Assembly: GCF_947366995.1 (NCBI RefSeq)
Contig: NZ_CANBCC010000008.1
Location: 10,189 to 74,188, forward strand
Origin: an uncultured Aquabacterium sp.
GTDB lineage: Bacteria > Pseudomonadota > Gammaproteobacteria > Burkholderiales > Burkholderiaceae_C
Direction of reading: 5' to 3'
Length of the DNA: 64,000 bases
Shown: positions 9,248 to 19,936 of the stretch, one piece after another
Layout of the letters: the number at the start of each line of letters is the position of its first letter
Numbering within the stretch: the stretch's first letter is position 1
Notes under the pieces: model-generated
What the model saw: the letters and a program-made list of their open reading frames with translations, nothing else
What the model was told of the DNA's origin: nothing
Databases searched by the model: none
Translations under genes and position numbers: made by a program

Positions 9248-10798
9248 TCACTTCAACCCCAACCGCTTCGCCAGCTTGTGCAGGTTGCTCGAATCCACCC
9301 CCAACTGACGCGCCGCCATGGCCCAGTTTCCATCGGTGTGCCGCAATGCCTGCCGGATGGCCTGGCGTTGAAGCTGATCGACCTGTTCGTGCAGGGTCAC
9401 CGGCTGGGGTGTGTCATGGTTATCGGCCGGACAGCGCACCGTCGGCTCATGCGATGAGCCGCCCACGAGGGTGTCGGAAGACAGATCCAGCAGGTCTACC
9501 GTGAGCGTCGCGATGTCGCTGCGGCTCACGCCACGGGTCAGCAGCTTGAGGGCCGCCCGGCCGATCACGTGCTCCAGCTCACGCACGTTGCCCGGCCAGG
9601 GGTAGGCCAGCAACGCGGCTTCTGCCGCGGCGTCCAGCCTCAGGCTGCGCAGGCCCAGCCGGGCCCGGTTCACTTCCAGGAAGTGGCCGGCCAGCAGCAG
9701 GATGTCGTCGCCGCGATCGCGCAGCGGGGGCACGTGCACCGGGTACACGGACAGCCGGTGATACAGGTCGGCCCGGAAGGTGCCTTCGGCGACGGCGTCG
9801 CGCAGCGCGCGGTTGGTGGCGGCCACGATGCGCACGTCCACCTTCACGGGCTTGTCGGCGCCCAGGCGCTGCACCTCGCCGTTCTGCAGCGTGCGCAGCA
9901 GCTTGGCCTGGATGGTGAGGGGCAGCTCGCCCACCTCGTCCAGGAACACGGTACCGCCTCGGGCCGCTTCGAAGCGCCCGGCACGGTCGGTGGTGGCGCC
10001 CGAGAAGGCACCGCGCACGTGGCCAAACAGCTCGCTTTCCGCGAGCGACTCGGGCAATGCCGCGCAGTTCACATGGACCATGGGCTTGCCCGCGCGCGGC
10101 GAGTGCTCGTGCACGCGGCTGGCAAACAGGTCCTTGCCGACACCCGTCTCGCCCATCAGCAGCACAGGCAGATCGGACTGGGCCACCACGTCGACCTCGT
10201 GCAGCACCCGCTGCAGCGCCGGGCTGTGGCCGATCAGGCCCAGCCACGGCCCGGCGCTGACCCCGCGCCCCACCGGGTCGGGTTCGGCCACGCGCGCCTG
10301 GCGCAAGGCCTGTACTTCCTGCTCGAGCTGGCTCATGCGCACTGCGGCCGCGACCCAGGGCAGGCACTGCTGCAGCGCCTCGCGGGCCACGGTGTCGAAC
10401 GTGCCGGGGCGCAGGGCGTCCAGCGTGAGCACGCCCCAGCGGTGGCCGTCGACCACAACGCTCGCGCCCATGCAGTCGTGCACCGGCAGCGGCTCGCCGG
10501 CCATGGCGTCGACCAGGCCGTCGTAGGGATCAGGCAGCGTGCTGGCGTGTTCGAAGTGCACCACGCCCCGTCCCAACAGGATGGCCGACAGGCGCGGGTG
10601 CTGCGCAATCACGAAGGCCCGGCCCATGGCATCGCGTGTCAGCCCATCGACGGCCACAGGGCGCAGCCGTTCGCCTTCTTCCTGCAGCAAGGCCACCGCA
10701 TGGCAGGCGAACTGCGCCTTCAGTTGCGACACCAGGCGCTGCAGCCGCACGGCGCGCGGCAGCGCCACGGCTAGGTCCGCCCACCCCAGCGTCGCCAT
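9248..10798 (-). CDS. norR: NO-responsive sigma54 activator NorR (GAF-AAA-HTH)
   Basis: GAF with VHDCMG, GETGVGKD, ESELFGH.RGAFSGA, YPWPGNVRELE, Fis-type HTH; divergent from ytfE. Confidence 0.9.
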   Translation of the reverse strand: MATLGWADLAVALPRAVRLQRLVSQLKAQFACHAVALLQEEGERLRPVAVDGLTRDAMGRAFVIAQHPRLSAILLGRGVVHFEHASTLPDPYDGLVDAMAGEPLPVHDCMGASVVVDGHRWGVLTLDALRPGTFDTVAREALQQCLPWVAAAVRMSQLEQEVQALRQARVAEPDPVGRGVSAGPWLGLIGHSPALQRVLHEVDVVAQSDLPVLLMGETGVGKDLFASRVHEHSPRAGKPMVHVNCAALPESLAESELFGHVRGAFSGATTDRAGRFEAARGGTVFLDEVGELPLTIQAKLLRTLQNGEVQRLGADKPVKVDVRIVAATNRALRDAVAEGTFRADLYHRLSVYPVHVPPLRDRGDDILLLAGHFLEVNRARLGLRSLRLDAAAEAALLAYPWPGNVRELEHVIGRAALKLLTRGVSRSDIATLTVDLLDLSSDTLVGGSSHEPTVRCPADNHDTPQPVTLHEQVDQLQRQAIRQALRHTDGNWAMAARQLGVDSSNLHKLAKRLGLK

Positions 10799-10802
10799 CG
10801 TG

Positions 10803-10858
10803 GTGATATTTACCCCATGCACGGTTTAAACGACCCTCACTTTAAGGGTTAATTCTAC
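10803..10858. promoter_or_regulatory. Three NorR enhancer sites (GT-N7-AC)
   Basis: GTGATATTTAC 10803-10813, GTTTAAACGAC 10824-10834, GTTAATTCTAC 10848-10858. Confidence 0.8.
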
Positions 10859-10870
10859 CCGCCACCACGG

Positions 10871-10883
10871 TAATTGCTTGATT
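10871..10883 (-). promoter_or_regulatory. IHF site
   Basis: Reverse complement AATCAA-GCAA-TTA matches WATCAANNNNTTR, between the enhancers and the sigma54 promoter. Confidence 0.75.
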
Positions 10884-10900
10884 TTCAAGGACCGGCGCCC

Positions 10901-10915
10901 TGGCGCGCAGCTTGC
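10901..10915 (+). promoter_or_regulatory. sigma54 (-24/-12) promoter of ytfE
   Basis: TGGCGCGCAGCTTGC, GG-N10-GC. Confidence 0.8.
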
Positions 10916-10952
10916 GCTATGGGAGGCATCTCACACGAAGGAGCCCTTCACC

Positions 10953-11606
10953 ATGAACCACGCCGACGAATCTCTGGGCTTGCTGGCCCGCACCATCCCG
11001 GGCGCCACCAAGGTGTTCCACGAATACCACCTCGACTTCTGCTGCGGCGGCAAGCAGACGCTGCAGCAGGCGGCCGACAAGGCCGGCATCGACGCTGCCC
11101 GCATCGTCGCGCAACTGGCCCGGCTGCAACCGCAGGCCGATGGCGCGGTCGACTGGACGGATGCCCCCACCCCGGCGCTGATCGAACACATCCTCGAGCG
11201 CTTCCATGCGCGGCACCGTGAGCAGCTGCCCGAGCTCATCCGCCTGGCCCGCCGCGTGGAATCCGTGCACGGCGACCGCCCCGAGTGCCCGCTCGGCCTG
11301 GCCGACCACCTCGAAAACATGCTGCAGGAGTTGGAGAGCCACATGCAGAAGGAAGAGATGGTGCTGTTCCCGATGCTGCAGCGCGGACAGCCCGGCGTGG
11401 CCGCCATGCCCATCCAGGTGATGCGCCATGAGCATGACCATCACGGTGGCGAGCTGGCCAAGCTGGAAGCGCTCACCCACGGCATCACCCTGCCTCGTGG
11501 CGCCTGCAACACCTGGCGTGCGCTGTACCTGGGCCTGCAGACGCTGCGCGAGGACCTGATGGAGCACATCCACCTCGAGAACAACGTGCTGTTCGAGCGC
11601 GGATGA
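10953..11606 (+). CDS. ytfE: Iron-sulfur cluster repair di-iron protein (YtfE/NorA/RIC)
   Basis: LDFCCGG, FHARHREQLPELI.LA.RVE.VH, HMQKEE..LFP, HIHLENNVLF; AAGGAG SD. Confidence 0.93.
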   Translation: MNHADESLGLLARTIPGATKVFHEYHLDFCCGGKQTLQQAADKAGIDAARIVAQLARLQPQADGAVDWTDAPTPALIEHILERFHARHREQLPELIRLARRVESVHGDRPECPLGLADHLENMLQELESHMQKEEMVLFPMLQRGQPGVAAMPIQVMRHEHDHHGGELAKLEALTHGITLPRGACNTWRALYLGLQTLREDLMEHIHLENNVLFERG

Positions 11607-11771
11607 AACACCGCTGAAACGGTGCGCCCAAGGGCGGTGGGGCCATCGCGGCAAGGCAATCCGTGACGCATGACGCGGCGGTTTTCCGGATCTCGCGATT
11701 GCCCTGCCTTATCCACCGACCGGTCGATGCACGTGCTTGCCATAGTGTTGGCGGCACAGCGCCATCGCACC

Positions 11772-14489
11772 GTGAAACTCTATTCCTCCCTCAGCATCCA
11801 GGGCCGGGTCACCCTCTGGGCCACCATCATCGTCCTCTTCGGGGTGGCGGTGCTGTCTGCGGCCGGCATCTCCGTCCTGCGGACCGACCTGCGGCAGGCC
11901 GCCTTCGCGGCACAAGGGGCGCTGGTCCACAGCGTTGCGGAAGACATCGATGAGAAGCTGCTGCTGCGCAAGCAGGCAGTGGCCACGGTCGCCCAGACCA
12001 TCAATGCCGAACTGCTGAACGAACCCCTCGCCCTGAGGGCCGACTTCTCGCACCGAAAGCTTTTCCAGAGCCTGTTCGACATCGTCGTGATCACCGATGC
12101 CAAAGGCCATGTGATCACCGAATGGCCGGTGCGTCCGAACGAAGGCGTGATCTCCATCGCAGACCGGGCCTACTTTCAGAAGGCCATGCGCACGGGCGAG
12201 GTTGTCATCTCGGAACCCCTCGCCAACAAGATGACGGGGGAGCCGACCCTGGTGTTTGCCGCCCCGATTCGCGACGCGCACGGCAGAGTCGCAGGCGCCC
12301 TGCTGGGCAGCCTCATCCTGACCCGCGACAACTTCCTGGCATCGCTGCGCGAAACCCGCGTCGGCCAGGGCGGCTATTTCTACCTGGCCTCGAAAGGCGA
12401 AGACGCCCGGCTCGTGCTCCACCACGATGTGAAGCGCATCATGACGCCGGTGCCACCGGCTCACGTGAGCAAGCCCCTGCATGCCGCGCTCGCAGGGTTT
12501 GAAGGCACGATCGAAGGGGTCAACAGCCGCGGCTTGAAGGCGCTGTACACGTTCAAGTCGCTGGAATCCGTGCCCTGGGTGCTGTGTGCGGCCTACCCCA
12601 CAGCCGAGGCCTATGCGCCGATCGAATCCCGGTCTGACCAGCTCGTCATCGGCGCCGTGGTGTTCGCGGTGCTGGGCGGCTTGCTGATGGGCGCGGTGAC
12701 GCGACGGCAATTGCGCCCACTGGTGCATCTGAAACGAGAGCTTCAGGCCGCCACCCACGGCAACGACAAGGCGCTGCCCTTGCAATCGGGCCCGAAGGAC
12801 CTGCGGGAACTGGCCGAGGCCTACAACGCCGTGCGTGCACACAAGAACCAGGCCGAGTCGGCGCAACTGGAGATCCAGCGCCGCCTTCGCGCCGTGCTGG
12901 AGCACGCAGGCGACGCCTTCGTCAGCATCGATGCGGGCGGCGCCATCACAGAATGGAACAAGGAGGCCGAGGAGACCTTCGGCTGGCCTCGCGCCCATGT
13001 GCTGGGCCTGCGGCTGGATCAGGTGCTGATCCCTGCGGAGCACCGCGAGGCGCACAACCGGGGGTTCGCGCGCTTTCTGGGATCCGGGATGGGTCCGGTC
13101 ATCGGCCAGCGCATCGAGGTGATGGCCCTTCATCGGACGGGACGGCTCATCCCGGTGGAGCTCTCGGTGTCGGCGCTGAAAGAGGGCGGGCAGTGGATCG
13201 CCCATGCCTTCCTGCGCGACATCTCGGAGCGCAAGGCCTCGGAGGAAAAGCTGGCCGCCAGCGAACGCCATCTGCGGGACATCATGAACAACATGCCCGC
13301 CGAGATCGCCGTGATGGACCGGCAAGGTCGCTTCGTGAGCGTCAACACGCACCGCGCCCGCACGCTGCGCCTGCCGGAACGCGCGCTGCTCGGGGCCTTT
13401 GCGCGCGACTTCCTCGACGAAGCGGAACGCAACGTGATCGAGCCACGATTCAGGCAGGCGCTCGAGGGGGTCGCCGTCCAGTTCGAGACGACACACGAGC
13501 GAGGTGGCAAGCACCACCAGCTGCACTACTTCATTCCAGACCGGGGCCCGGCAGGCGAGGTCTGCGGCGTCTATGAGATGACGCTTGACATCACCGACCG
13601 CAAGGAGGCCGAGCAACTGCTGGCCACCAACCAGGCGCAGCTGCGGGCCATCACCAACAACCTCCCGGTGTTGATCGCCTACATCGACACGGAAGGGGTC
13701 TACCGCTTCTGCAACGCGACCTTCGAGCAGTGGTTCGATCGACCCGTGACCGACATCGTGAACCGGCCACTCGAGGCCCTTCTGGCCGACGAGTCGTGGA
13801 GCCGCAAGCTGAAGTCGGCGCTCCGTGGCGAGCGGGTCGAGTTCACCACGCAATTGCATCATGGTGACGCTCATCGCCATGTGATGGCGCTCTACATCCC
13901 GGATCTGGGTGCATCGGGCGAGGTACACGGCGTGCACGCGCTGACCTTTGACATCACGCAATCCAAGGTCTACGAACAGCAACTGCTTGAACTGGCGCGC
14001 CACGACAGCCTGACCGGCCTGCCCAACCGCCGCTACTTCGAAGAGAAGCTGGATGAGGCCATGGCACGGGCCCGCCGGTCCGGCCGGGCCATGGCCCTGC
14101 TGTACCTGGACCTTGACCGCTTCAAGCACATCAACGACACGCGAGGCCACGGGGTGGGCGACGACCTGCTCAAGGGGTTTGCCCAGCGGCTGGTGGGTGC
14201 GGTCAGGGCCACCGATGCGGTGTGCCGCCTGGCAGGTGACGAGTTCACCGTGATCCTTGAAGGCCTGCATCAGGCCGAGGAAGCCACACTGGTGGCTGAC
14301 AAGATCGAACGCGCCATGGACGAGCCGATCGCGGTGCAGGACGGCGTGGTGCAGACCTCCACCAGCATTGGCGTGGCGGTGTTCGAGGGCGGTGCGGGCA
14401 CCGGGTCCGCCTTGCTGGACAAGGCCGATCAGGCGCTCTACACCGCCAAGCGCGCGGGTCGGGCCACGTTCCACGTGACCACCTTCTGA
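11772..14489 (+). CDS. Membrane sensor diguanylate cyclase (TM-dCache-TM-PAS x3-GGDEF); start uncertain (11727 or 11772)
   Basis: Two TM segments, DR.YF Cache motif, PAS repeats, HDSLTGLPNRR, DLDRFK.INDT.GH..GD, RATD I-site, AGDEF. Confidence 0.88.
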   Translation: MKLYSSLSIQGRVTLWATIIVLFGVAVLSAAGISVLRTDLRQAAFAAQGALVHSVAEDIDEKLLLRKQAVATVAQTINAELLNEPLALRADFSHRKLFQSLFDIVVITDAKGHVITEWPVRPNEGVISIADRAYFQKAMRTGEVVISEPLANKMTGEPTLVFAAPIRDAHGRVAGALLGSLILTRDNFLASLRETRVGQGGYFYLASKGEDARLVLHHDVKRIMTPVPPAHVSKPLHAALAGFEGTIEGVNSRGLKALYTFKSLESVPWVLCAAYPTAEAYAPIESRSDQLVIGAVVFAVLGGLLMGAVTRRQLRPLVHLKRELQAATHGNDKALPLQSGPKDLRELAEAYNAVRAHKNQAESAQLEIQRRLRAVLEHAGDAFVSIDAGGAITEWNKEAEETFGWPRAHVLGLRLDQVLIPAEHREAHNRGFARFLGSGMGPVIGQRIEVMALHRTGRLIPVELSVSALKEGGQWIAHAFLRDISERKASEEKLAASERHLRDIMNNMPAEIAVMDRQGRFVSVNTHRARTLRLPERALLGAFARDFLDEAERNVIEPRFRQALEGVAVQFETTHERGGKHHQLHYFIPDRGPAGEVCGVYEMTLDITDRKEAEQLLATNQAQLRAITNNLPVLIAYIDTEGVYRFCNATFEQWFDRPVTDIVNRPLEALLADESWSRKLKSALRGERVEFTTQLHHGDAHRHVMALYIPDLGASGEVHGVHALTFDITQSKVYEQQLLELARHDSLTGLPNRRYFEEKLDEAMARARRSGRAMALLYLDLDRFKHINDTRGHGVGDDLLKGFAQRLVGAVRATDAVCRLAGDEFTVILEGLHQAEEATLVADKIERAMDEPIAVQDGVVQTSTSIGVAVFEGGAGTGSALLDKADQALYTAKRAGRATFHVTTF

Positions 14490-14729
14490 CGCGCGGGCTG
14501 CGATGCCGCCGACATGGCTCATGCAACGAGCCAGTGGCGGAGAAGATTTACCGGTCAAACCTGCCTGAAGGAAGACCGTCCCTGGCACGCGTCTCCCTCT
14601 TCCTCTGGCGCGGTGCCCCGGACTGCCAGGGAACACCGCTTGCTCTGCTTGGCCACCCCGGCGCCCCACCGCCGGCCACCTGTCCGCAAGGACAGGGCCT
14701 CACAAACCAGGCACAACAAGGGGGTTTCC

Positions 14730-14840
14730 ATGCACGGCCCGCTCAAGATCGTGAGCTACGTCATCGTGCTGCTGATGGCCCTGGCGGTCATCTACGCGGT
14801 CTACATCTCGGCCACCTACTGGGCCGGCATCGGCGTCTGA
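14730..14840 (+). CDS. 36-aa single-TM small protein upstream of norC
   Basis: MHGPLKIVSYVIVLLMALAVIYAVYISATYWAGIGV; AAGGGG SD, GC3-rich codons, 13 nt before norC. Confidence 0.7.
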   Translation: MHGPLKIVSYVIVLLMALAVIYAVYISATYWAGIGV

Positions 14841-14853
14841 CGAGGAAGACGCC

Positions 14854-15726
14854 ATGAACAAGAAGCAATCCCGCACCTTTGCCATCGCCTGCACGGCGGT
14901 GGCCACCGTGGTCTTCCTCGGGCTGACCATCGACAGCCATCGGCAGTTTCCCAAGCTGACCAACGCCGACCAGCTCACACCCCAGGTGATTGCCGGCAAG
15001 GACGTCTGGCACAAGTTCAACTGCGTGAACTGCCACACGCTGTTTGGCGAAGGCGCCTACTACGCACCTGACCTCACCAAGATCGCCAAGCTGCGCGGCG
15101 ACGCCTACCTGCAGGCCTACATGCGCAACCCGGCGCAGTTCTACGACGAGCAGCGCCACCGTCGCCTGATGCCCAAGCAGGATCTGAGCGACGAGGAGAT
15201 CCGCAACCTCGTGAGCTTTCTGACCTGGGTGAGCAACGTCGACAACCAGGGCTGGCCACCCCGGCCGATCCTGGTGACGGGCGCCACCTTCCCGGGCACC
15301 GACATGACCGCACGGCAGCAGGCCGAAACTTCCGGTGAGAAGACGGACGGCAGCGCCGTGCCACCGGGCGCGCGGCCGCTGTCGGGCAACGAAAACCCGA
15401 TTGCGCTGGGCGAGCGCGTCTTCCGCGCGGCCACGCCCGCCTGTGCCGCCTGCCATTCGCTGGCCCCGGGCGTGAACATGGCCGGGCCCTCGCTGTCCGG
15501 CGTGGGCAGCCGTGCCGCGCAATTGATCGGCTCGTCGGATTACAAGGGCAAGGCCAAGGATGTGGCCGGCTACCTCCGCGAGGCAGTGCAGAGCCCGAGC
15601 GCGCATGTGGTGCCCGGCGCCATGTACTCGGCCAACGGCGTGTCCTTCATGCCCGACACCTACAGCAAGAGCCTGACGCCCGAGCAGCTAGACCAGCTCG
15701 TCGCCTACCTCTCATCGCTCCGTTAA
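14854..15726 (+). CDS. norC: NorC-like cytochrome c subunit with a second heme c domain
   Basis: N-terminal TM, CVNCH...GEGAYYAPDL...LMP, then CAACH...FMP. Confidence 0.85.
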   Translation: MNKKQSRTFAIACTAVATVVFLGLTIDSHRQFPKLTNADQLTPQVIAGKDVWHKFNCVNCHTLFGEGAYYAPDLTKIAKLRGDAYLQAYMRNPAQFYDEQRHRRLMPKQDLSDEEIRNLVSFLTWVSNVDNQGWPPRPILVTGATFPGTDMTARQQAETSGEKTDGSAVPPGARPLSGNENPIALGERVFRAATPACAACHSLAPGVNMAGPSLSGVGSRAAQLIGSSDYKGKAKDVAGYLREAVQSPSAHVVPGAMYSANGVSFMPDTYSKSLTPEQLDQLVAYLSSLR

Positions 15727-15741
15727 CCCGCGAGGTCCCGC

Positions 15742-17121
15742 ATGCGATACCACTCTCAATCGGTCGCCTACTGGTACTTCGCCGTGGCGATGGCGCTCTT
15801 CGGCCTGCAGATCGTCTTCGGCCTGCTGTCTGCGGCCAAGTACCTCGGGCCCGACCCGCTGCTTTACATCCTGCCGTTCGACGTGACCAAGGTGATCCAC
15901 ACCAACCTGCTGGTTGTGTGGGTGCTCACGGGCTTCATGGGCGCCACCTACTGGATGGTGCCCGACGAGTCGCGCACCGAACTGCACAGCGTGAAGCTGG
16001 CCTACATCCAGCTAGGCTTGTGGGTGCTGATGGGCGTCACGGCCGTCATCGGCTACCTCTTCCGCTATGGCACCGGCAACAAGCTGCTGGAGCAACCGCT
16101 GCCCCACAAGATCGTCATCGTGGTGGTGATGCTCATGTTCCTCTACAACGTCGTGATGACGATCCGCAAGTCGGGCCGCTTCACGACCACCGAGGGGGTG
16201 CTGTTGCTGGGGATTGCCGGCGCGGCGGTGCTGTACCTGCCCGCGCTGATCGAGCATGACAACTACGTGGTCTCCATCTTCTACCGCTGGTGGACCATCC
16301 ACCTGTGGGTGGAAGGCGTGTGGGAGATGATCCAGGGCGGCTTCCTGGCCTACCTGCTGATCCGGCTCTCGGGCGCCGACCGCGAGGTGCTCGAGAAGTG
16401 GCTGTACGTGATCGTCGGGCTGGTGTTCATTGCCGGCATCCTGGGCACGGCGCACCATTACTACTGGGTGGGCGTGCCCAGCTACTGGCTGCCCATCGGG
16501 GGCATCTTCAGCGCGCTGGAGCCCGCGGCCCTGGTCGGCATGGCGATCTACGCCTACTCGGCCATGCGCCGTTCGGGCCTGGCCCACCCCAACACGCTGG
16601 CCCTGCACTGGACGCTGGGCAGCGCCATCTTCACGCTGTTCGGCGCGGGGCTGCTCGGCCTGGCGCACACCTGGCCCAGCGTCAACAAGTGGACGCACGG
16701 CACGCTGATCACGGCCATGCACGGCCACGCGGCCTTCTATGGGGCTTACGCGATGATTGTGCTGGCCATGATCACGTATGCCCTGCCGGTGATCTCGCCT
16801 GCGCGGCGTGAACAGGGCACGGCCATGGGCTACTGGGCGTTCTGGCTGCAACTGGTCGGCATGTTCGGCATGACACTGTCGTTCGCGACCGCGGGCATCG
16901 GACAGGTCTATCTGGAACGCATCATGGGCCTCGGCTACCTCGACGCCCAGCTCAAGATCCAGGTGCACTTCCTGATGCTGATCGGCACGGCCAGCCTGTT
17001 CGCGTTGGGGGTCGCGCTCTTCATCATCGACTTCTTCCGGTATGCGCCGCGCTTCGAGGTGGTGAAGGACGCCGATGAACGCATTCCCACTCCAGCGCCC
17101 GTCCGCCCGGTGCGGGTCTGA
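15742..17121 (+). CDS. norB: Nitric oxide reductase large subunit (cNOR type)
   Basis: IHTN, HLWVEGVWE, GTAHHYYW, ALEP and HGHAAFYG ligands all present. Confidence 0.9.
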   Translation: MRYHSQSVAYWYFAVAMALFGLQIVFGLLSAAKYLGPDPLLYILPFDVTKVIHTNLLVVWVLTGFMGATYWMVPDESRTELHSVKLAYIQLGLWVLMGVTAVIGYLFRYGTGNKLLEQPLPHKIVIVVVMLMFLYNVVMTIRKSGRFTTTEGVLLLGIAGAAVLYLPALIEHDNYVVSIFYRWWTIHLWVEGVWEMIQGGFLAYLLIRLSGADREVLEKWLYVIVGLVFIAGILGTAHHYYWVGVPSYWLPIGGIFSALEPAALVGMAIYAYSAMRRSGLAHPNTLALHWTLGSAIFTLFGAGLLGLAHTWPSVNKWTHGTLITAMHGHAAFYGAYAMIVLAMITYALPVISPARREQGTAMGYWAFWLQLVGMFGMTLSFATAGIGQVYLERIMGLGYLDAQLKIQVHFLMLIGTASLFALGVALFIIDFFRYAPRFEVVKDADERIPTPAPVRPVRV

Positions 17122-17124
17122 CCC

Positions 17125-17928
17125 GTGATGACTGGAGACGCCCAAGCCACCGGCCAGGCACCCTTCTACATGGCCTCGGGCGCCGAGGTCGAGATCTTCA
17201 CGCAGTGCCATCAGCGCCACCTTGCCGTGATGCTCAAGGGGCCGACCGGCTGCGGCAAGACCCGCTTCGTGGAGCACATGGCCTGGCGGCTGGGCCGCCC
17301 GTTGATCACGGTGTCCTGCCATGACGACCTGACCGCCAGCGACCTCATCGGCCGCTTCCACATCCGGCACGACGGCACGCAGTGGCAGGACGGGCCCTTG
17401 ACGCGGGCCGTTCGGGAAGGCGCCATCTGCTATCTGGACGAGGTGGTGGAAGCCCGGCAGGACACGGTAGTGCTGGTGCACCCGCTGACCGACTATCGCC
17501 GCATGCTGCCTGTCGACAAGACGGGCGAGTTGCTCGAAGCGGCGCCCGGCTTCCAGCTGGTTGTCTCGTACAACCCGGGCTACCAGCGCATGCTGAAGGA
17601 ACTCAAGCCCAGCACGCGCCAGCGTTTCGTGGCGCTCGACTTTAGCTTCCCGTCGCCCGAGCAGGAAGCCCGCGTGGTGGCGCATGAAAGCGGCATTGAC
17701 GCGGGCATGGCCCACGGCCTGGTGGCCCTCGGCGGCCGCCTGCGCACGCTGCAGGACCAGGGTCTGGCCGAGGTGCCAAGCACCCGCTTGCTTGTCCATG
17801 CCGGGCGCCTGATGGCCGGCGGCATCGAGGCCCGGCAGGCCTGCCATACCGCGATCGTTGCGCCACTCTCGGACGACCCGACGCTGGTGTCGGCCATGCG
17901 CGACCTGGTGGACGCCACGTTCGTGTGA
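17125..17928 (+). CDS. norQ: CbbQ/NirQ/NorQ AAA+ ATPase
   Basis: GPTGCGKTRFVE, CYLDEVVEARQD, SYNPGYQ, LKPST.QRF. Confidence 0.93.
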   Translation: MMTGDAQATGQAPFYMASGAEVEIFTQCHQRHLAVMLKGPTGCGKTRFVEHMAWRLGRPLITVSCHDDLTASDLIGRFHIRHDGTQWQDGPLTRAVREGAICYLDEVVEARQDTVVLVHPLTDYRRMLPVDKTGELLEAAPGFQLVVSYNPGYQRMLKELKPSTRQRFVALDFSFPSPEQEARVVAHESGIDAGMAHGLVALGGRLRTLQDQGLAEVPSTRLLVHAGRLMAGGIEARQACHTAIVAPLSDDPTLVSAMRDLVDATFV

Positions 17929-17932
17929 CGCC

Positions 17933-19936
17933 ATGGCCGAGGCCGAAGATGTCCTTCAGGACGCCGCGCGACACGCCACGATCTTCGTGCGCGACCTGTG
18001 GCGGCGGCACCGACCGCCCGCATCGCAGGCAGAGGGCATCACCCTGCGGGACGTGAGCCGGCGGCTCGACCTGCTGGCCCATGCAGTCTTCGGACGTGCG
18101 TTTGCACTCCGGCAGGCGGATCCGCCCGCCCCGGCCACACTGCTCGACAAGCTGTTTCGCCGCGGGGAAGGCGTGCGCGTGCAGCAGGCGCTGCCGGCGA
18201 CCGATGGCCACACCATCTGGCTGCCGGCCACCCTGCCCTTCGGGCGCGAACCGGCTGACACCACCCCCTATCGTCTGGCGCTGCTGCAGCAGGCGATGCG
18301 CGCCGTTCGGGGCAGTGCCGAGGGCTGGTCTTCGCTGAGCCACCCCGTCGAGCAGGCGCTGTTCCTGGTGCGGGAGGCCGATGCCGCCGATGCAGCGCTG
18401 GTCCGGATGCTGCCTGGCGTGGCGGCCGCCTTGCAGAGCTGGCGTCAGCATGCGCTGTCTGTCCGTCCACCACTGGCCACGTTGCCCACCCACCGCCAAC
18501 CGCTCGAGGCGGTGGTGCAGGGGATATTGGCTCAACCCGTGAGCCACCTCAAGGCGACGCCGGTGGAAGCGGTGTGGCATCAGGCCCGCCATGAAGCGCG
18601 CGAACTGCCCGACGCGCCGCCGGGCCGCCTGCTGTACCGCGACCTGTGGACGGGCGAGTTCCGGCGCCCTGCCCCGGCCGCCCTTCTGCGAGCCGGCGAC
18701 CCGCAAGCCGAGGGCGTGCCACCGCCCCCCGCACGCAGCGCCCGCCTGCCGCGCAGCCCCGCAGTGCGGGAAGCCCCGGACGACGAAGACGACACACGGC
18801 AAGGCGCGTGGATGGTTCAGACCGCCCAGCCGCACGAACAGGCCGAAGACCCGATCGGCATGCAGCGGCCCACCGACCGCGACGACACCACCGCGGCCGA
18901 GGAATACGCCGATGCGCTGTCCGAGCTGCCGCAGGCCCGGCTGGTGGCCACCCCGATCCGGCCGAAGGAAGTGCTGCTATCAGAAGACCTGCCCGCCTTT
19001 CGCGCCAGGGCTGCCCTGTCCAGCGGGGATCCGGGCACCGCGGGCCGCTACCGCTATCCGGAGTGGGACTACCGCAGCGAGAGCTATGTGGAAAACGCCG
19101 TGACGGTGCACGTGAGCGAAGCGCAGGAGGGCCCGCAAGCGTGGGTCGATGCGACGCTTGCGCGGAACCAGGGGCTGCTGAGCCTGGTTCGCCGTCGGTT
19201 CGAGATGCTGCAGGCTCAGCGACTGCGCCTGTACCGGCAGCTCGACGGTGAGGAGCCGGACCTGAACGCCTGCGTGGAAGCCTGGGCCGATCTGCGTGCC
19301 GGCCGGTCCATGCCGACCCACCTCTACCAGACGGTGCGCCCAGCCCGGCGCGACATGGCGGTGCTCATCCTCACCGACATCAGCGGCTCGACAGATGGGT
19401 GGCTGTCTGCCCATCGCCGGGTGATCGACGTGGAGCGGGAGGCCCTGCTGCTGGTGAGCCGCGCGCTCGAAAGCATGCGTGAGCGGCATGCGCTTCAGGC
19501 GTTCTCGGGCGAAGGCCCTCGCGGCGTGGTGGTGCGGGTGCTCAAGGATTTCGACGAACACCGCAGCGACCTCGTGGCCCGGCGGATCGCCTCACTGGAG
19601 CCCGAGCACTACACCCGTGCCGGCGCCGCCCTGCGGCACGCCACGGCGACCTTGATGCAGCAGCCAGCTCACCATCGCCTGCTGCTGCTGCTGTCCGATG
19701 GCAAGCCCAACGACATCGACGATTACGAAGGCCGGTACGGCGTGGAAGACATGCGGCAGGCCGCCACGGAAGCCCGCCTGCAGGGCATTCACCCGTTCTG
19801 CCTCACGGTGGACCGGCAGGCAGCCGCTTACCTGCCCCAGGTGTTCGGGCCGCATCACTACGCCATGCTGCCGCGGCCCGAGCGCCTGCCGATCGTGCTG
19901 CTGGAATGGATGAAACGGCTCGCGGGATCCGGCTGA
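17933..19936 (+). CDS. norD: NorD vWA-domain NOR activation protein
   Basis: YPEWDY, DISGST MIDAS, YTRAGAALRHA, LSDGKPND.D.YEGRYG.ED. Confidence 0.9.
   Translation: MAEAEDVLQDAARHATIFVRDLWRRHRPPASQAEGITLRDVSRRLDLLAHAVFGRAFALRQADPPAPATLLDKLFRRGEGVRVQQALPATDGHTIWLPATLPFGREPADTTPYRLALLQQAMRAVRGSAEGWSSLSHPVEQALFLVREADAADAALVRMLPGVAAALQSWRQHALSVRPPLATLPTHRQPLEAVVQGILAQPVSHLKATPVEAVWHQARHEARELPDAPPGRLLYRDLWTGEFRRPAPAALLRAGDPQAEGVPPPPARSARLPRSPAVREAPDDEDDTRQGAWMVQTAQPHEQAEDPIGMQRPTDRDDTTAAEEYADALSELPQARLVATPIRPKEVLLSEDLPAFRARAALSSGDPGTAGRYRYPEWDYRSESYVENAVTVHVSEAQEGPQAWVDATLARNQGLLSLVRRRFEMLQAQRLRLYRQLDGEEPDLNACVEAWADLRAGRSMPTHLYQTVRPARRDMAVLILTDISGSTDGWLSAHRRVIDVEREALLLVSRALESMRERHALQAFSGEGPRGVVVRVLKDFDEHRSDLVARRIASLEPEHYTRAGAALRHATATLMQQPAHHRLLLLLSDGKPNDIDDYEGRYGVEDMRQAATEARLQGIHPFCLTVDRQAAAYLPQVFGPHHYAMLPRPERLPIVLLEWMKRLAGSG

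What the first reader, a model, noticed from the sequence alone, without database searches (positions are those of the whole stretch)
16066..16285. NorB lacks the conserved Ca2+/proton-entry residues of canonical cNOR
Seen: the loop reads TGNKLLEQP and later VVSIFYRWW. From memory of P. aeruginosa NorB the equivalents are MGREFLEQP and TRDKFYWWW. That puts Lys at the Ca2+-ligand Glu135 position (Glu122 in Paracoccus), Asn at Arg134 and Ser/Ile at Asp198/Lys199, residues assigned to the periplasmic proton channel. All six His ligands and the active-site Glu residues remain. Inference: a Lys may replace Ca2+, and protons may enter by another route, possibly changing electrogenicity or O2 versus NO preference.
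Basis: partly seen in the sequence, partly recalled or inferred. Interest (0 to 1): 0.62.

Follow-up and report, generated by a model that had tools for sequence, protein, structure and literature searches.

The report
Nitric-oxide reductase lacking calcium-ligand glutamate
This plasmid-borne nitric-oxide reductase belongs to a widespread but unstudied branch of the enzyme family in which the glutamate that normally holds a structural calcium ion is always a lysine and the usual proton-entry residues are replaced, so it is a natural test of how these N2O-producing enzymes work.

Summary
NorB (15742-17121) has Lys114 where P. aeruginosa cNOR has the Ca2+ ligand Glu135. It also has Asn113 for Arg134 and Ser178/Ile179 for Asp198/Lys199. 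All six His ligands and the three active-site Glu remain.

This is a clade signature, not a one-off. At least 574 species genomes carry an 82-92% identical NorB. In all 80 examined it sits in a fixed module: 36-aa membrane peptide, two-haem NorC, NorB, NorQ, NorD. A sister clade (119 sequences) also has Lys135 and a two-haem NorC but keeps Arg134 and Asp198. 23 canonical NorB have Glu135 and 22 paired NorC have one haem.

Both Lys clades also share Trp202Arg, Gln415Glu and a 14-residue loop deletion. The window's clade alone adds Arg57Lys, Asn54Asp and, in NorC, Glu57His.

The cytoplasmic channel plug (Ile244) and the NorD-docking acids are kept. In 15 of 36 genomes this enzyme is the only NorB-type reductase, and 8 of those 15 have a nitrite reductase.

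Best reading: a working periplasmic-proton cNOR in which Lys probably substitutes for Ca2+ and proton entry is rebuilt. An electrogenic or O2-reducing shift is not supported. One paper lists "9% K" in a table. I found no discussion or characterisation.

The parts
14629..14644 (+). Candidate sigma-54 -24/-12 element GGGAACACCGCTTGCT upstream of the nor module (inferred only)
   Evidence: Read. GG and TTGC have the consensus spacing. The element is identical in Aquabacterium olei pTB101. No sigma-70-like promoter or FNR box lies nearby.
14730..14840 (+). 36-aa single-helix membrane peptide, first gene of the module
   Evidence: tblastn finds it directly upstream of norC in most of the 80 related loci. 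It is absent from the sister clade and not annotated in A. olei.
14854..15726 (+). Two-haem NorC (290 aa): the NorC domain (CVNCH at 57) plus a C-terminal class I cytochrome c domain (CAACH at 197)
   Evidence: Residues 12-137 align to 3o0r_C (E 2e-23). Pfam gives two Cytochrom_C stretches. Two CxxCH motifs occur in 78/78 clade members. Gly71/Tyr73/Glu70 are kept, Glu57c is His in 78/78, and Lys53c varies.
15010..15012 (+). NorC His53, at the position of channel-1 entrance residue Glu57c
   Evidence: The alignment to 3o0r_C shows gkdvwHk against GKLVWEq. His is invariant in 78/78, against Glu in 22/22 canonical NorC.
15742..17121 (+). NorB, catalytic subunit (459 aa)
   Evidence: phmmer gives 4xyd_A E 6e-110 and 3o0r_B E 4e-106. 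The AlphaFold2 model has pLDDT 84 and pTM 0.88. Foldseek gives TM 0.90 to 4xyd_A and 0.88 to 3o0r_B.
15880..15891 (+). Asp47...Lys50, replacing Asn54 and Arg57 of the cavity next to the Ca2+ site (channel 3)
   Evidence: Asp is found in 80/80 and Lys in 80/80 of the window's clade. Asn and Arg are each found in 23/23 canonical sequences, and the sister clade keeps Arg57.
16078..16083 (+). Asn113-Lys114, at the positions of Arg134 and the Ca2+ ligand Glu135. A 14-residue loop deletion lies just before them.
   Evidence: Lys is found in 199/199 sequences of the two Lys clades.
16273..16278 (+). Ser178-Ile179, at the positions of channel-1 residues Asp198 and Lys199
   Evidence: Position 198 is Ser in 62, Ala in 17 and Gly in 1. 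Position 199 is Ile in 80/80.
16285..16287 (+). Arg182, replacing the canonical Trp202. The gain is shared by both Lys clades.
   Evidence: Arg in 199/199 against Trp in 23/23.
16915..16917 (+). Glu392, replacing channel-2 residue Gln415. The gain is shared by both Lys clades.
   Evidence: Glu in 199/199 against Gln in 23/23. Channel-2 residues are as listed in PMC3431322.
17125..17928 (+). NorQ (MoxR-type AAA+ ATPase)
   Evidence: Pfam AAA_5 and CbbQ_C. Present in all related loci long enough to show it.
17933..19936 (+). NorD (VWA protein)
   Evidence: Pfam VWA. The start is set by the A. olei annotation. The NorD-docking acids Asp213/Glu215 of NorB (Pa Asp233/Glu235) are kept in 80/80.
9248..11606 (.). 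Context: norR (9248-10822, minus strand) and ytfE/scdA (10878-11606, plus strand), NO-responsive neighbours
   Evidence: Pfam gives GAF + Sigma54_activat + HTH_8 for the first and ScdA_N + Hemerythrin for the second. In A. olei, norR-ytfE is followed, after a short hypothetical ORF, by the nor module.

Best explanation
NorB here is the catalytic subunit of a working, NorQD-matured, cytochrome c-dependent NO reductase. It belongs to a distinct, horizontally spread branch that I call K-type cNOR.

The complex is predicted to contain:
- a 36-aa membrane peptide;
- a NorC with a second, tethered cytochrome c domain (a likely built-in electron entry);
- NorB with the normal haem b / haem b3-FeB centre.

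Shown:
- The Ca2+-ligand Glu135 is an invariant Lys.
- The 14-residue loop before it is deleted.
- Trp202 is Arg and Gln415 is Glu.
- In the window's subclade, Arg134, Asp198, Lys199, Arg57, Asn54 and NorC Glu57 are also replaced.

Inferred:
- The Lys ammonium group, perhaps together with Arg182, takes over the job of Ca2+, which is to neutralise and bridge the propionates of haems b and b3. The two arginines of A- and B-type oxidases do the same job.
- Protons still come from the periplasm, but through a rebuilt entrance. Candidates are His53 of NorC with the Ser178 region, or channel 2 with the new Glu392.
- The enzyme is therefore not electrogenic.

In this genome it is a second, plasmid-borne NOR beside norR-ytfE, and it probably responds to NO stress.

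My sub-confidences are: functional NOR of a distinct clade 0.85; Lys replaces Ca2+ 0.5; proton entry differs from canonical channel 1 0.55.
For: Family and fold:
- Searches place the protein in the cNOR NorB family.
- The catalytic ligands are intact.

Clade-wide signature:
- GTGNK[LM]LEQP occurs in 80/80 window-type sequences.
- Lys135, Arg202 and Glu415 occur in 199/199 sequences of the two Lys clades, against Glu, Trp and Gln in 23/23 canonical sequences.
- Glu to Lys changes the charge by +2, which is exactly the charge of the lost Ca2+ (inference).
- NorC has two haems in 78/78 plus 7/7 K-type loci and one haem in 22/22 canonical loci.

Phylogeny:
- The two Lys clades are sisters (SH-aLRT 99).
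- Together they are sister to Pseudomonas-type cNOR.
- The window's clade sits on a long stem of 1.29 changes per site.

Evidence that the enzyme works:
- It is 82-92% identical across Burkholderiales, Pseudomonadales, Steroidobacterales, Cellvibrionaceae, Myxococcota and Acidobacteriota in at least 574 species genomes.
- It is the only NorB homologue in 15 of 36 genomes, and 8 of those 15 have NirK or NirS.
- Neighbours include NnrS, NsrR-type Rrf2, NorR, NirK-cytochrome c and NosZ.

Evidence against a cytoplasmic proton route:
- Ile244 is kept in 80/80, position 290 is aromatic, and Asp233/Glu235 are kept. The criteria come from PMC12067857.

Literature:
- In P. denitrificans, E122Q has 1% activity and the channel-1 residues matter (PMC4816578). 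A clade without them must therefore solve the problem in another way.
Against: - No metal content, structure or activity data exist for any member.
- The NorC Ca2+ ligands Gly71 and Tyr73 and Glu70c are invariant, which would also fit a retained Ca2+ site.
- The P. denitrificans E122A variant still keeps part of its Ca2+.
- The AlphaFold2 model is least confident exactly around residues 111-120 (mean pLDDT 61), and the tool gives no coordinates, so the Lys114 and Arg182 side-chain positions are unverified.
- The orientation of Arg182 toward the propionates is a guess from helix position only.
- The canonical comparison set (23 sequences) comes from one GTDB class plus one PDB entry (P. aeruginosa 3o0r_B).
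Confidence: 0.5

Rival explanations
1. Ca2+ is still bound between the haems. Its ligands would be the two propionates, NorC Tyr73 OH, the Gly71 carbonyl, waters and perhaps the new Asp47. Lys114 points away and serves proton transfer or gating instead. Only the proton entrance differs from canonical cNOR.
For: Gly71c, Tyr73c and Glu70c are invariant in 78/78. Asn54 becomes Asp in 80/80 of the window's clade, which puts a new carboxylate in the cavity beside the Ca2+ site (cavity residues listed in PMC3431322). The P. denitrificans E122A and E122D variants lose Ca2+ only partly (PMC4816578).
Against: The sister clade has Lys135 but Asn or His at position 54, so no substitute carboxylate is general. 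A cationic Lys three residues before Glu138, in a site built for a divalent cation, should repel Ca2+ (inference). Glu to Lys is exactly charge-compensating for loss of the ion.
Confidence: 0.3
2. The changes reflect a change of job. The enzyme would take protons from the cytoplasm (electrogenic), or would prefer O2 or another substrate over NO.
For: PGAP names it 'cbb3-type cytochrome c oxidase subunit I' with the GO term aerobic respiration. The subunit make-up (small peptide plus extra cytochrome c domain) resembles cbb3. The channel-1 residues that define periplasmic uptake are largely gone.
Against: The FeB ligand Glu191 and Glu195/Glu260 are kept, with 42-44% identity to cNOR NorB against 16-18% to CcoN. 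The K-analogue plug Ile244 is kept in 80/80 and NorQD with its docking acids is kept. The genomic partners are nir, nos, nnrS, nsrR and norR. The PGAP name is a generic family label.
Confidence: 0.07
3. It is an inactive or decaying paralogue carried on a plasmid beside the functional chromosomal norCB.
For: This genome also has a canonical nirS-norCBQ-nosZ set on contig C1. Glu122 substitutions cripple the Paracoccus enzyme.
Against: The frames are intact and the protein is 82-92% identical over at least 574 species genomes from several phyla. It is the sole NorB homologue in 15 of 36 genomes, and 8 of those have a nitrite reductase. The clade-specific residues are themselves invariant.
Confidence: 0.03

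Closest known systems
Canonical cNOR NorBC of Pseudomonas aeruginosa (PDB 3O0R) and Roseobacter denitrificans (4XYD); Paracoccus denitrificans NorCBQD
   Same: The 12-helix NorB fold (TM 0.88-0.90), all six His ligands, the FeB Glu and two further active-site Glu, a membrane-anchored NorC haem c domain with Gly71/Tyr73, NorQ/NorD with docking acids, and a plugged cytoplasmic K-analogue.
   Different: - Glu135 (Ca2+ ligand) is Lys.
- Arg134, Asp198, Lys199, Arg57, Asn54 and NorC Glu57 are replaced.
- Trp202 is Arg and Gln415 is Glu.
- A 14-residue periplasmic loop is deleted.
- NorC carries a second cytochrome c domain.
- An extra 36-aa peptide gene is present.
- Identity to canonical NorB is 42-48%.
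Sister K-type clade (for example G302:C44 = L083; Bdellovibrionota, Myxococcota and Gammaproteobacteria MAGs)
   Same: Lys135, Arg202, Glu415, the short loop, a two-haem NorC and NorQD. It often lies next to nirK-cytochrome c/nirV and nosZ.
   Different: It keeps Arg134, Asp198, Arg57, Lys53c and an acidic 57c. Position 199 is Ser. It has no small peptide gene. It is about 53% identical to the window's NorB.
cbb3-type oxidase CcoNOQP
   Same: Nearest oxidase relative. It has a Ca2+ site between haems b and b3. Its architecture includes a small single-helix subunit (CcoQ) and additional c-haem domains (CcoP).
   Different: It has a CuB/Tyr active site and a cytoplasmic proton channel, and it keeps the Glu ligand of Ca2+ (Glu122). 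Identity is only 16-18%.
A- and B-type haem-copper oxidases (arginine pair at the haem propionates)
   Same: Protein cations sit where C-type oxidases and NORs hold Ca2+ (stated in PMC4816578). This is the precedent for a metal-free solution.
   Different: The arginines come from a different loop. This is a functional analogy only, and the homology of position was not tested.
Thermus thermophilus cNOR NorCBH
   Same: A cNOR with a third small membrane subunit, reported to use a periplasmic pathway other than channel 1.
   Different: It has no NorQD, an open K-analogue and a one-haem NorC. Its Glu135 status was not checked here. NorH is encoded downstream and its relatedness to the 36-aa peptide was not tested.
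K+-independent pyruvate kinases (Glu117 to Lys; recalled from memory, not checked here)
   Same: A Glu-to-Lys swap at a cation site in which the Lys amine acts as a tethered internal cation.
   Different: An unrelated enzyme and a monovalent cation. This is an analogy only.

Membership tests
[quoted passage not shown] | NorB with the haem-copper oxidase subunit I fold, closest to solved cNOR NorB | tested here: met
   phmmer E 6e-110 and 4e-106 to 4xyd_A and 3o0r_B. Foldseek TM 0.90 and 0.88. Pfam COX1.
[quoted passage not shown] | Six His ligands (haem b x2, haem b3, FeB x3) | tested here: met
   His53, 187, 238, 239, 327 and 329 are present, and are invariant in 80/80.
[quoted passage not shown] | The FeB glutamate ligand (Glu211) and the active-site Glu215 and Glu280 | tested here: met
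   Glu191, Glu195 and Glu260 are present in the window. Glu211 and Glu280 are kept in 80/80. Glu215 is Met or Val in 18/80 relatives but Glu here.
[quoted passage not shown] | Membrane-anchored NorC with a CxxCH haem c domain | tested here: met
   Residues 12-137 align to 3o0r_C, E 2e-23. A second cytochrome c domain is an addition.
[quoted passage not shown] | Ca2+ site ligands: NorB Glu135, and NorC Gly71 and Tyr73 | tested here: not met
   Glu135 is Lys114 (199/199 in the two Lys clades). Gly71 and Tyr73 are kept. Metal occupancy itself cannot be tested with these tools.
[quoted passage not shown] | The seven ionisable channel-1 residues (Glu135, Asp198, Lys199, Arg134, Lys53c, Glu57c, Glu70c; PMC3431322) | tested here: not met
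   Only Glu70c is invariant. Lys53c is variable (Lys in 54/78). The other five are replaced.
[quoted passage not shown] | NorQ/NorD maturation genes, the NorD-docking acids, and a hydrophobic plug in the K-analogue (criteria of PMC12067857) | tested here: met
   norQ and norD are adjacent. Asp233/Glu235 and Ile244 are kept in 80/80. Position 290 is Tyr.
[quoted passage not shown] | NO to N2O reductase activity with periplasmic protons | not testable with these tools
   Support is indirect only: it is the sole NorB homologue in 8 nitrite-reductase-bearing genomes.
cbb3-type cytochrome c oxidase subunit I (the name PGAP gives it) | CcoN-level similarity and a CuB-type site without a Glu metal ligand | tested here: not met
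   Identity to CcoN chains is 16-18%, against 42-44% to NorB. The FeB ligand Glu191 is present.
qNOR | A single chain of about 750 aa with a fused N-terminal NorC-like domain that lacks haem c | tested here: not met
   The protein is 459 aa with a separate haem-c NorC. qNOR hits are weaker, with E 5e-40 or worse.

The most novel reading that the evidence does not exclude
K-type cNORs are the first members of the C-type oxidase/NOR lineage that work without the inter-haem Ca2+. Tethered protein cations (Lys114, possibly with Arg182) take its place. Substrate protons would use a periplasmic route other than the experimentally established channel 1. The switch is evolutionarily locked to a NorC with its own built-in cytochrome c.
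Probability: 0.4. Interest if true: 0.7.

Novelty: new variant of a known kind. Interest (0 to 1): 0.55.

Why it matters
cNOR produces much of the N2O that denitrifiers release. Its proton pathway and the role of its Ca2+ site are still argued from point mutants of one or two enzymes.

In Paracoccus, changing Glu122 or the channel-1 residues cripples the enzyme. The Ca2+ bridge is described as common to cNOR, qNOR and cbb3 oxidases (PMC10256718).

A natural, abundant and strongly conserved branch that lacks the Glu ligand and most channel-1 residues, yet is the only NOR in many nitrite reducers, offers three things:
- a ready-made test of which features are essential;
- the compensating changes to try in the model enzymes (Arg202, Glu415, His57c);
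- a correction to current annotation, which labels these genes cbb3 oxidase/aerobic respiration and so undercounts NO reducers.

Tried and rejected
- The exhaustive representative search returned mostly fragments. It was usable only for site tabulation, not for a clean tree.
- A search for an FNR/DNR box (TTGA-N6-TCAA) found none near the nor module. The sigma-70 and terminator scan of 14400-14900 found nothing.
- The AlphaFold2 model gives no coordinates and has low confidence at 111-120, so it cannot place the Lys side chain.
- Literature searches for a two-haem NorC or for Lys at the Ca2+ site found no description beyond the '9% K' table entry.
- Three papers were not held: ter Beek 2013 (JBC), Woo et al. 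2022 (nine cNorB clades) and Ducluzeau 2014. A mention there cannot be excluded.
- I considered the eNOR, sNOR, gNOR, nNOR, NOD and 'N2O-red' families of Murali et al. 2024. I rejected them because the active-site ligands and the 42-48% identity place the protein with cNOR.
- I checked whether nirK lies directly upstream in Stutzerimonas, as the published text implies. In L059 the upstream genes are a di-haem peroxidase and a cupin, so the link is not immediate there.
Full report
**The observation**

The finding lies in a 459-aa ORF at 15742..17121 (+). TGNKLLEQP is residues 111-119 (nt 16072-16098). VVSIFYRWW is residues 176-184 (nt 16267-16293), so the stated end coordinate is 8 nt short.

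A phmmer search of all PDB chains gives the two solved cNOR NorB subunits as best hits: 4xyd_A at E 6e-110 and 3o0r_B at E 4e-106. qNOR follows far behind.

The equivalences are:
- Lys114 = Glu135
- Asn113 = Arg134
- Ser178 = Asp198
- Ile179 = Lys199

One caveat applies. The pairwise alignment to 3o0r_B places the loop gap so that TGNKL pairs with TGNEL (124-128). The alignment to 4xyd_A, and multiple alignments that include the sister clade (EGRKFLEIP), support Lys114 = Glu135. Under either placement, residues 105-116 contain no acidic residue.

His53, 187, 238, 239, 327 and 329 and Glu191, 195 and 260 correspond to His60, 207, 258, 259, 347 and 349 and Glu211, 215 and 280.

An AlphaFold2 model (pLDDT 84, pTM 0.88) superposes on 4xyd_A and 3o0r_B with TM 0.90 and 0.88, and on cbb3 CcoN with only 16-18% identity.

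**Surroundings in the window**

The gene is the third of five co-directional genes:
- a 36-aa one-helix peptide (14730-14840);
- a 290-aa NorC with two CxxCH motifs (14854-15726). Its residues 12-137 align to 3o0r_C, followed by a class I cytochrome c domain;
- NorB;
- NorQ (17125-17928);
- NorD (17933-19936).

Upstream lie norR (GAF, sigma-54 AAA+, HTH; 9248-10822, minus strand), ytfE/scdA (10878-11606) and a Cache-PAS-GGDEF gene (11670-14489).

The same module is 95% identical on plasmid pTB101 of Aquabacterium olei. There norR-ytfE is followed, after a short hypothetical ORF, by the nor module, and the GGDEF gene is absent. PGAP calls the NorB 'cbb3-type cytochrome c oxidase subunit I' and does not annotate the peptide.

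The window's own genome also has a canonical set on contig C1. This comprises a nirS cluster, norC (145 aa, one haem), norB (478 aa, GREFLEQP, VRDKMYWWF), norQ and nosZ. It has no nirK.

**It is a clade, not an oddity**

A scan of one genome per species found at least 574 genomes encoding a NorB that is 82-92% identical. They include Burkholderiales, Stutzerimonas/Pseudomonas, Steroidobacterales, Cellvibrionaceae, Pseudidiomarina and Litchfieldella, and also Myxococcota and Acidobacteriota MAGs.

All 80 loci fetched carry two-haem NorC, NorB and NorQ wherever the contig allows. Most also show the small peptide and NorD. Genes outside the module are not conserved, apart from scattered NnrS, Rrf2/NsrR-type and peroxidase genes.

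Site counts for the window's clade:
- GTGNK[LM]LEQP in 80/80.
- Position 198 is Ser in 62, Ala in 17 and Gly in 1. Position 199 is Ile in 80.
- In NorC, the Glu57c position is His in 78/78. Lys53c varies (K54, Q13, M6, N3, R2). Glu77c is Asp in 78/78. Glu70c, Gly71c and Tyr73c are invariant.

In an even sample of 400 genomes of the class, identities to the query were 100, 85 and 53%, then 48% or less. The groups are therefore discrete.

**The sister clade and what is shared**

The 53% hit (L083) and 119 full-length relatives come from Bdellovibrionota, Kofleriaceae and other MAGs. They also have Lys at position 135 (119/119), the short loop and a two-haem NorC (7/7 loci). They keep Arg134, Asp198, Arg57 and Lys53c, and they lack the peptide gene.

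Their neighbours include nirK-cytochrome c/nirV/senC, nosZ, NnrS, a sigma-54 activator and PAS-GGDEF.

23 canonical NorB sequences have Glu135, and all 22 paired NorC have one haem.

A maximum-likelihood tree puts the two Lys clades together (SH-aLRT 99). Together they are sister to Pseudomonas-type cNOR (SH-aLRT 90). The window's clade sits on a long stem (1.29 changes per site) with very short internal branches.

Changes fixed in both Lys clades and absent from all canonical sequences:
- Glu135Lys, Trp202Arg, Gln415Glu, loss of Lys199, Gln342Leu, Ala346Met;
- deletion of 14 residues (Pa 118-133).

Changes specific to the window's clade:
- Arg134Asn, Asp198Ser/Ala, Arg57Lys and Asn54Asp in NorB;
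- Glu57His in NorC.

**What the literature says**

Pisliakov et al. define channel 1 by seven ionisable residues: Glu135, Asp198, Lys199, Arg134, Lys53c, Glu57c and Glu70c. They define channel 2 by Arg416, Thr66c, Glu77c, Gln411 and Gln415, and channel 3 by Glu135, Glu138, Arg57, Asn54 and Asn60c (PMC3431322).

ter Beek et al. show that Paracoccus cNOR uses channel 1, that E122Q has 1% activity, and that E122A/D variants lose Ca2+ partly. Their conservation table reads 'E135 (88% E, 9% K ...)', 'R134 (96%, rest N,I,M,L)', 'D198 (96% D ...)' and 'E57c (77% E, rest Q,H,D)', without comment on the Lys forms. They also note that A/B-type oxidases have two arginines where NORs and cbb3 have Ca2+, and that Thermus cNOR was proposed to use channel 2 (PMC4816578).

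The Ca2+ bridge is presented as common to cNOR, qNOR and cbb3 (PMC10256718).

Appelgren and Adelroth give markers for NorQD-dependent, cytoplasmically plugged cNORs: acidic Asp220/Glu222 (Pd numbering), hydrophobic Ile244 and aromatic 290 (PMC12067857).

A Stutzerimonas study mentions an 'extra norCBQD' downstream of clade II nirK, with no further analysis.

I found no paper in the held library that describes a two-haem NorC or discusses Lys at the Ca2+ site. Three possibly relevant papers were not held.

**How it most likely works**

Shown:
- The catalytic centre, the NorQD dependence markers (Asp213/Glu215 = Pa Asp233/Glu235) and the K-analogue plug (Ile224 = Ile244; Tyr at 290) are intact.
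- Five of the seven channel-1 residues are replaced and a sixth (Lys53c) is no longer conserved.

Inferred:
- Glu to Lys adds +2, the same charge as the lost Ca2+. Lys is about one bond longer than Glu, so its amine could sit near the metal position and bridge the two propionates. Tyr73c and the Gly71c carbonyl would act as hydrogen-bond partners.
- Arg182, gained together with Lys, may add a second cation, in the manner of the arginine pair of A/B-type oxidases.
- Protons probably still enter from the periplasm. Two routes are possible. One is a rebuilt channel 1, using the invariant His at 57c and Ser/Ala at 198. The other is channel 2, which gains an invariant Glu at 415.
- The perfect association of Lys135 with the loop deletion and the two-haem NorC suggests the periplasmic face was rebuilt as one event to dock the extra cytochrome domain.

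That the enzyme works follows indirectly from three observations:
- very strong conservation;
- spread across several phyla;
- the fact that in 15 of 36 genomes it is the only NorB homologue, while 8 of those 15 have NirK or NirS.

In the window's genome it is a second NOR, on a plasmid, beside norR-ytfE. A candidate -24/-12 element lies at 14629-14644 and is conserved in A. olei. This points to an NO-stress role, but that is not shown.

**Rivals**

- A retained Ca2+ site is the serious alternative, at about 0.3. The NorC ligands are kept and the window's clade has a new Asp47.
- An electrogenic or O2-reducing enzyme is unsupported, because the plug, the FeB ligand set and the genomic partners are all those of a cNOR.
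- A decaying paralogue is excluded for practical purposes.

**Verdict**

This is a new variant of a known kind. It is a coherent, abundant and uncharacterised cNOR branch whose existence is visible in a published conservation table and in databases. Its defining features (Lys for the Ca2+ ligand, co-gained Arg and Glu, lost channel-1 residues, two-haem NorC, extra peptide) have not been described together as far as I could search. Earlier notes of this scan on the di-haem NorC, the peptide, the NorR context and the Glu215Met relatives agree with what I measured, but they are not independent evidence.

Noticed in passing
L026, L034, L035, L047, L049, L050, L055, L058, L063, L067-L070, L073, L075, L077, L080, L082 (NorB, Pa-Glu215 position): 18 of 80 window-type NorB have Met (17) or Val (1) instead of the conserved active-site Glu215 (HLWVEGVWM). 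Among them are Pseudidiomarina species in which this is the only NorB homologue. The window itself keeps Glu195.
   Followed up: partly
window 14629-14644: GGGAACACCGCTTGCT has the spacing of a sigma-54 -24/-12 element, about 85 nt before the 36-aa ORF. It is identical in A. olei pTB101. It would fit NorR control of the nor module independently of the ytfE promoter.
   Followed up: partly
window 11670-14489 versus L118 (A. olei pTB101): The Cache-PAS-GGDEF gene between ytfE and the nor module is absent in the 95%-identical A. olei plasmid, so it appears to be an insertion or a loss. A PAS-GGDEF gene also follows a sister-clade nor cluster (L114).
   Followed up: no
L118 (NZ_CP029211.1 228497-233579) and window 14730-17121: RefSeq/PGAP names this NorB 'cbb3-type cytochrome c oxidase subunit I' (GO aerobic respiration) and NorC 'c-type cytochrome', and leaves the 36-aa ORF unannotated. 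Gene-name-based surveys would miss these NO reductases.
   Followed up: yes
G408 (Azohydromonas aeria): C31:10792-12132 and C41:924-2273: One genome carries two copies of the window-type NorB (both 87% identical to the query) plus a canonical cNOR.
   Followed up: no
L089, L116 (sister clade): A long NirK with a C-terminal cytochrome c, NirV and SenC lie directly next to the K-type norCBQD, and in L116 nosZ lies next to it as well. Both the nitrite and the NO reductase of these organisms therefore carry tethered cytochrome c domains.
   Followed up: partly
P0155, P0157, P0171, P0174, P0182, P0194-P0208, P0218: A separate, well-supported group of about 32%-identical NorB-like proteins has Gln at the Glu280 position and an acidic residue at the Ile244 plug position. 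I did not identify it further.
   Followed up: no
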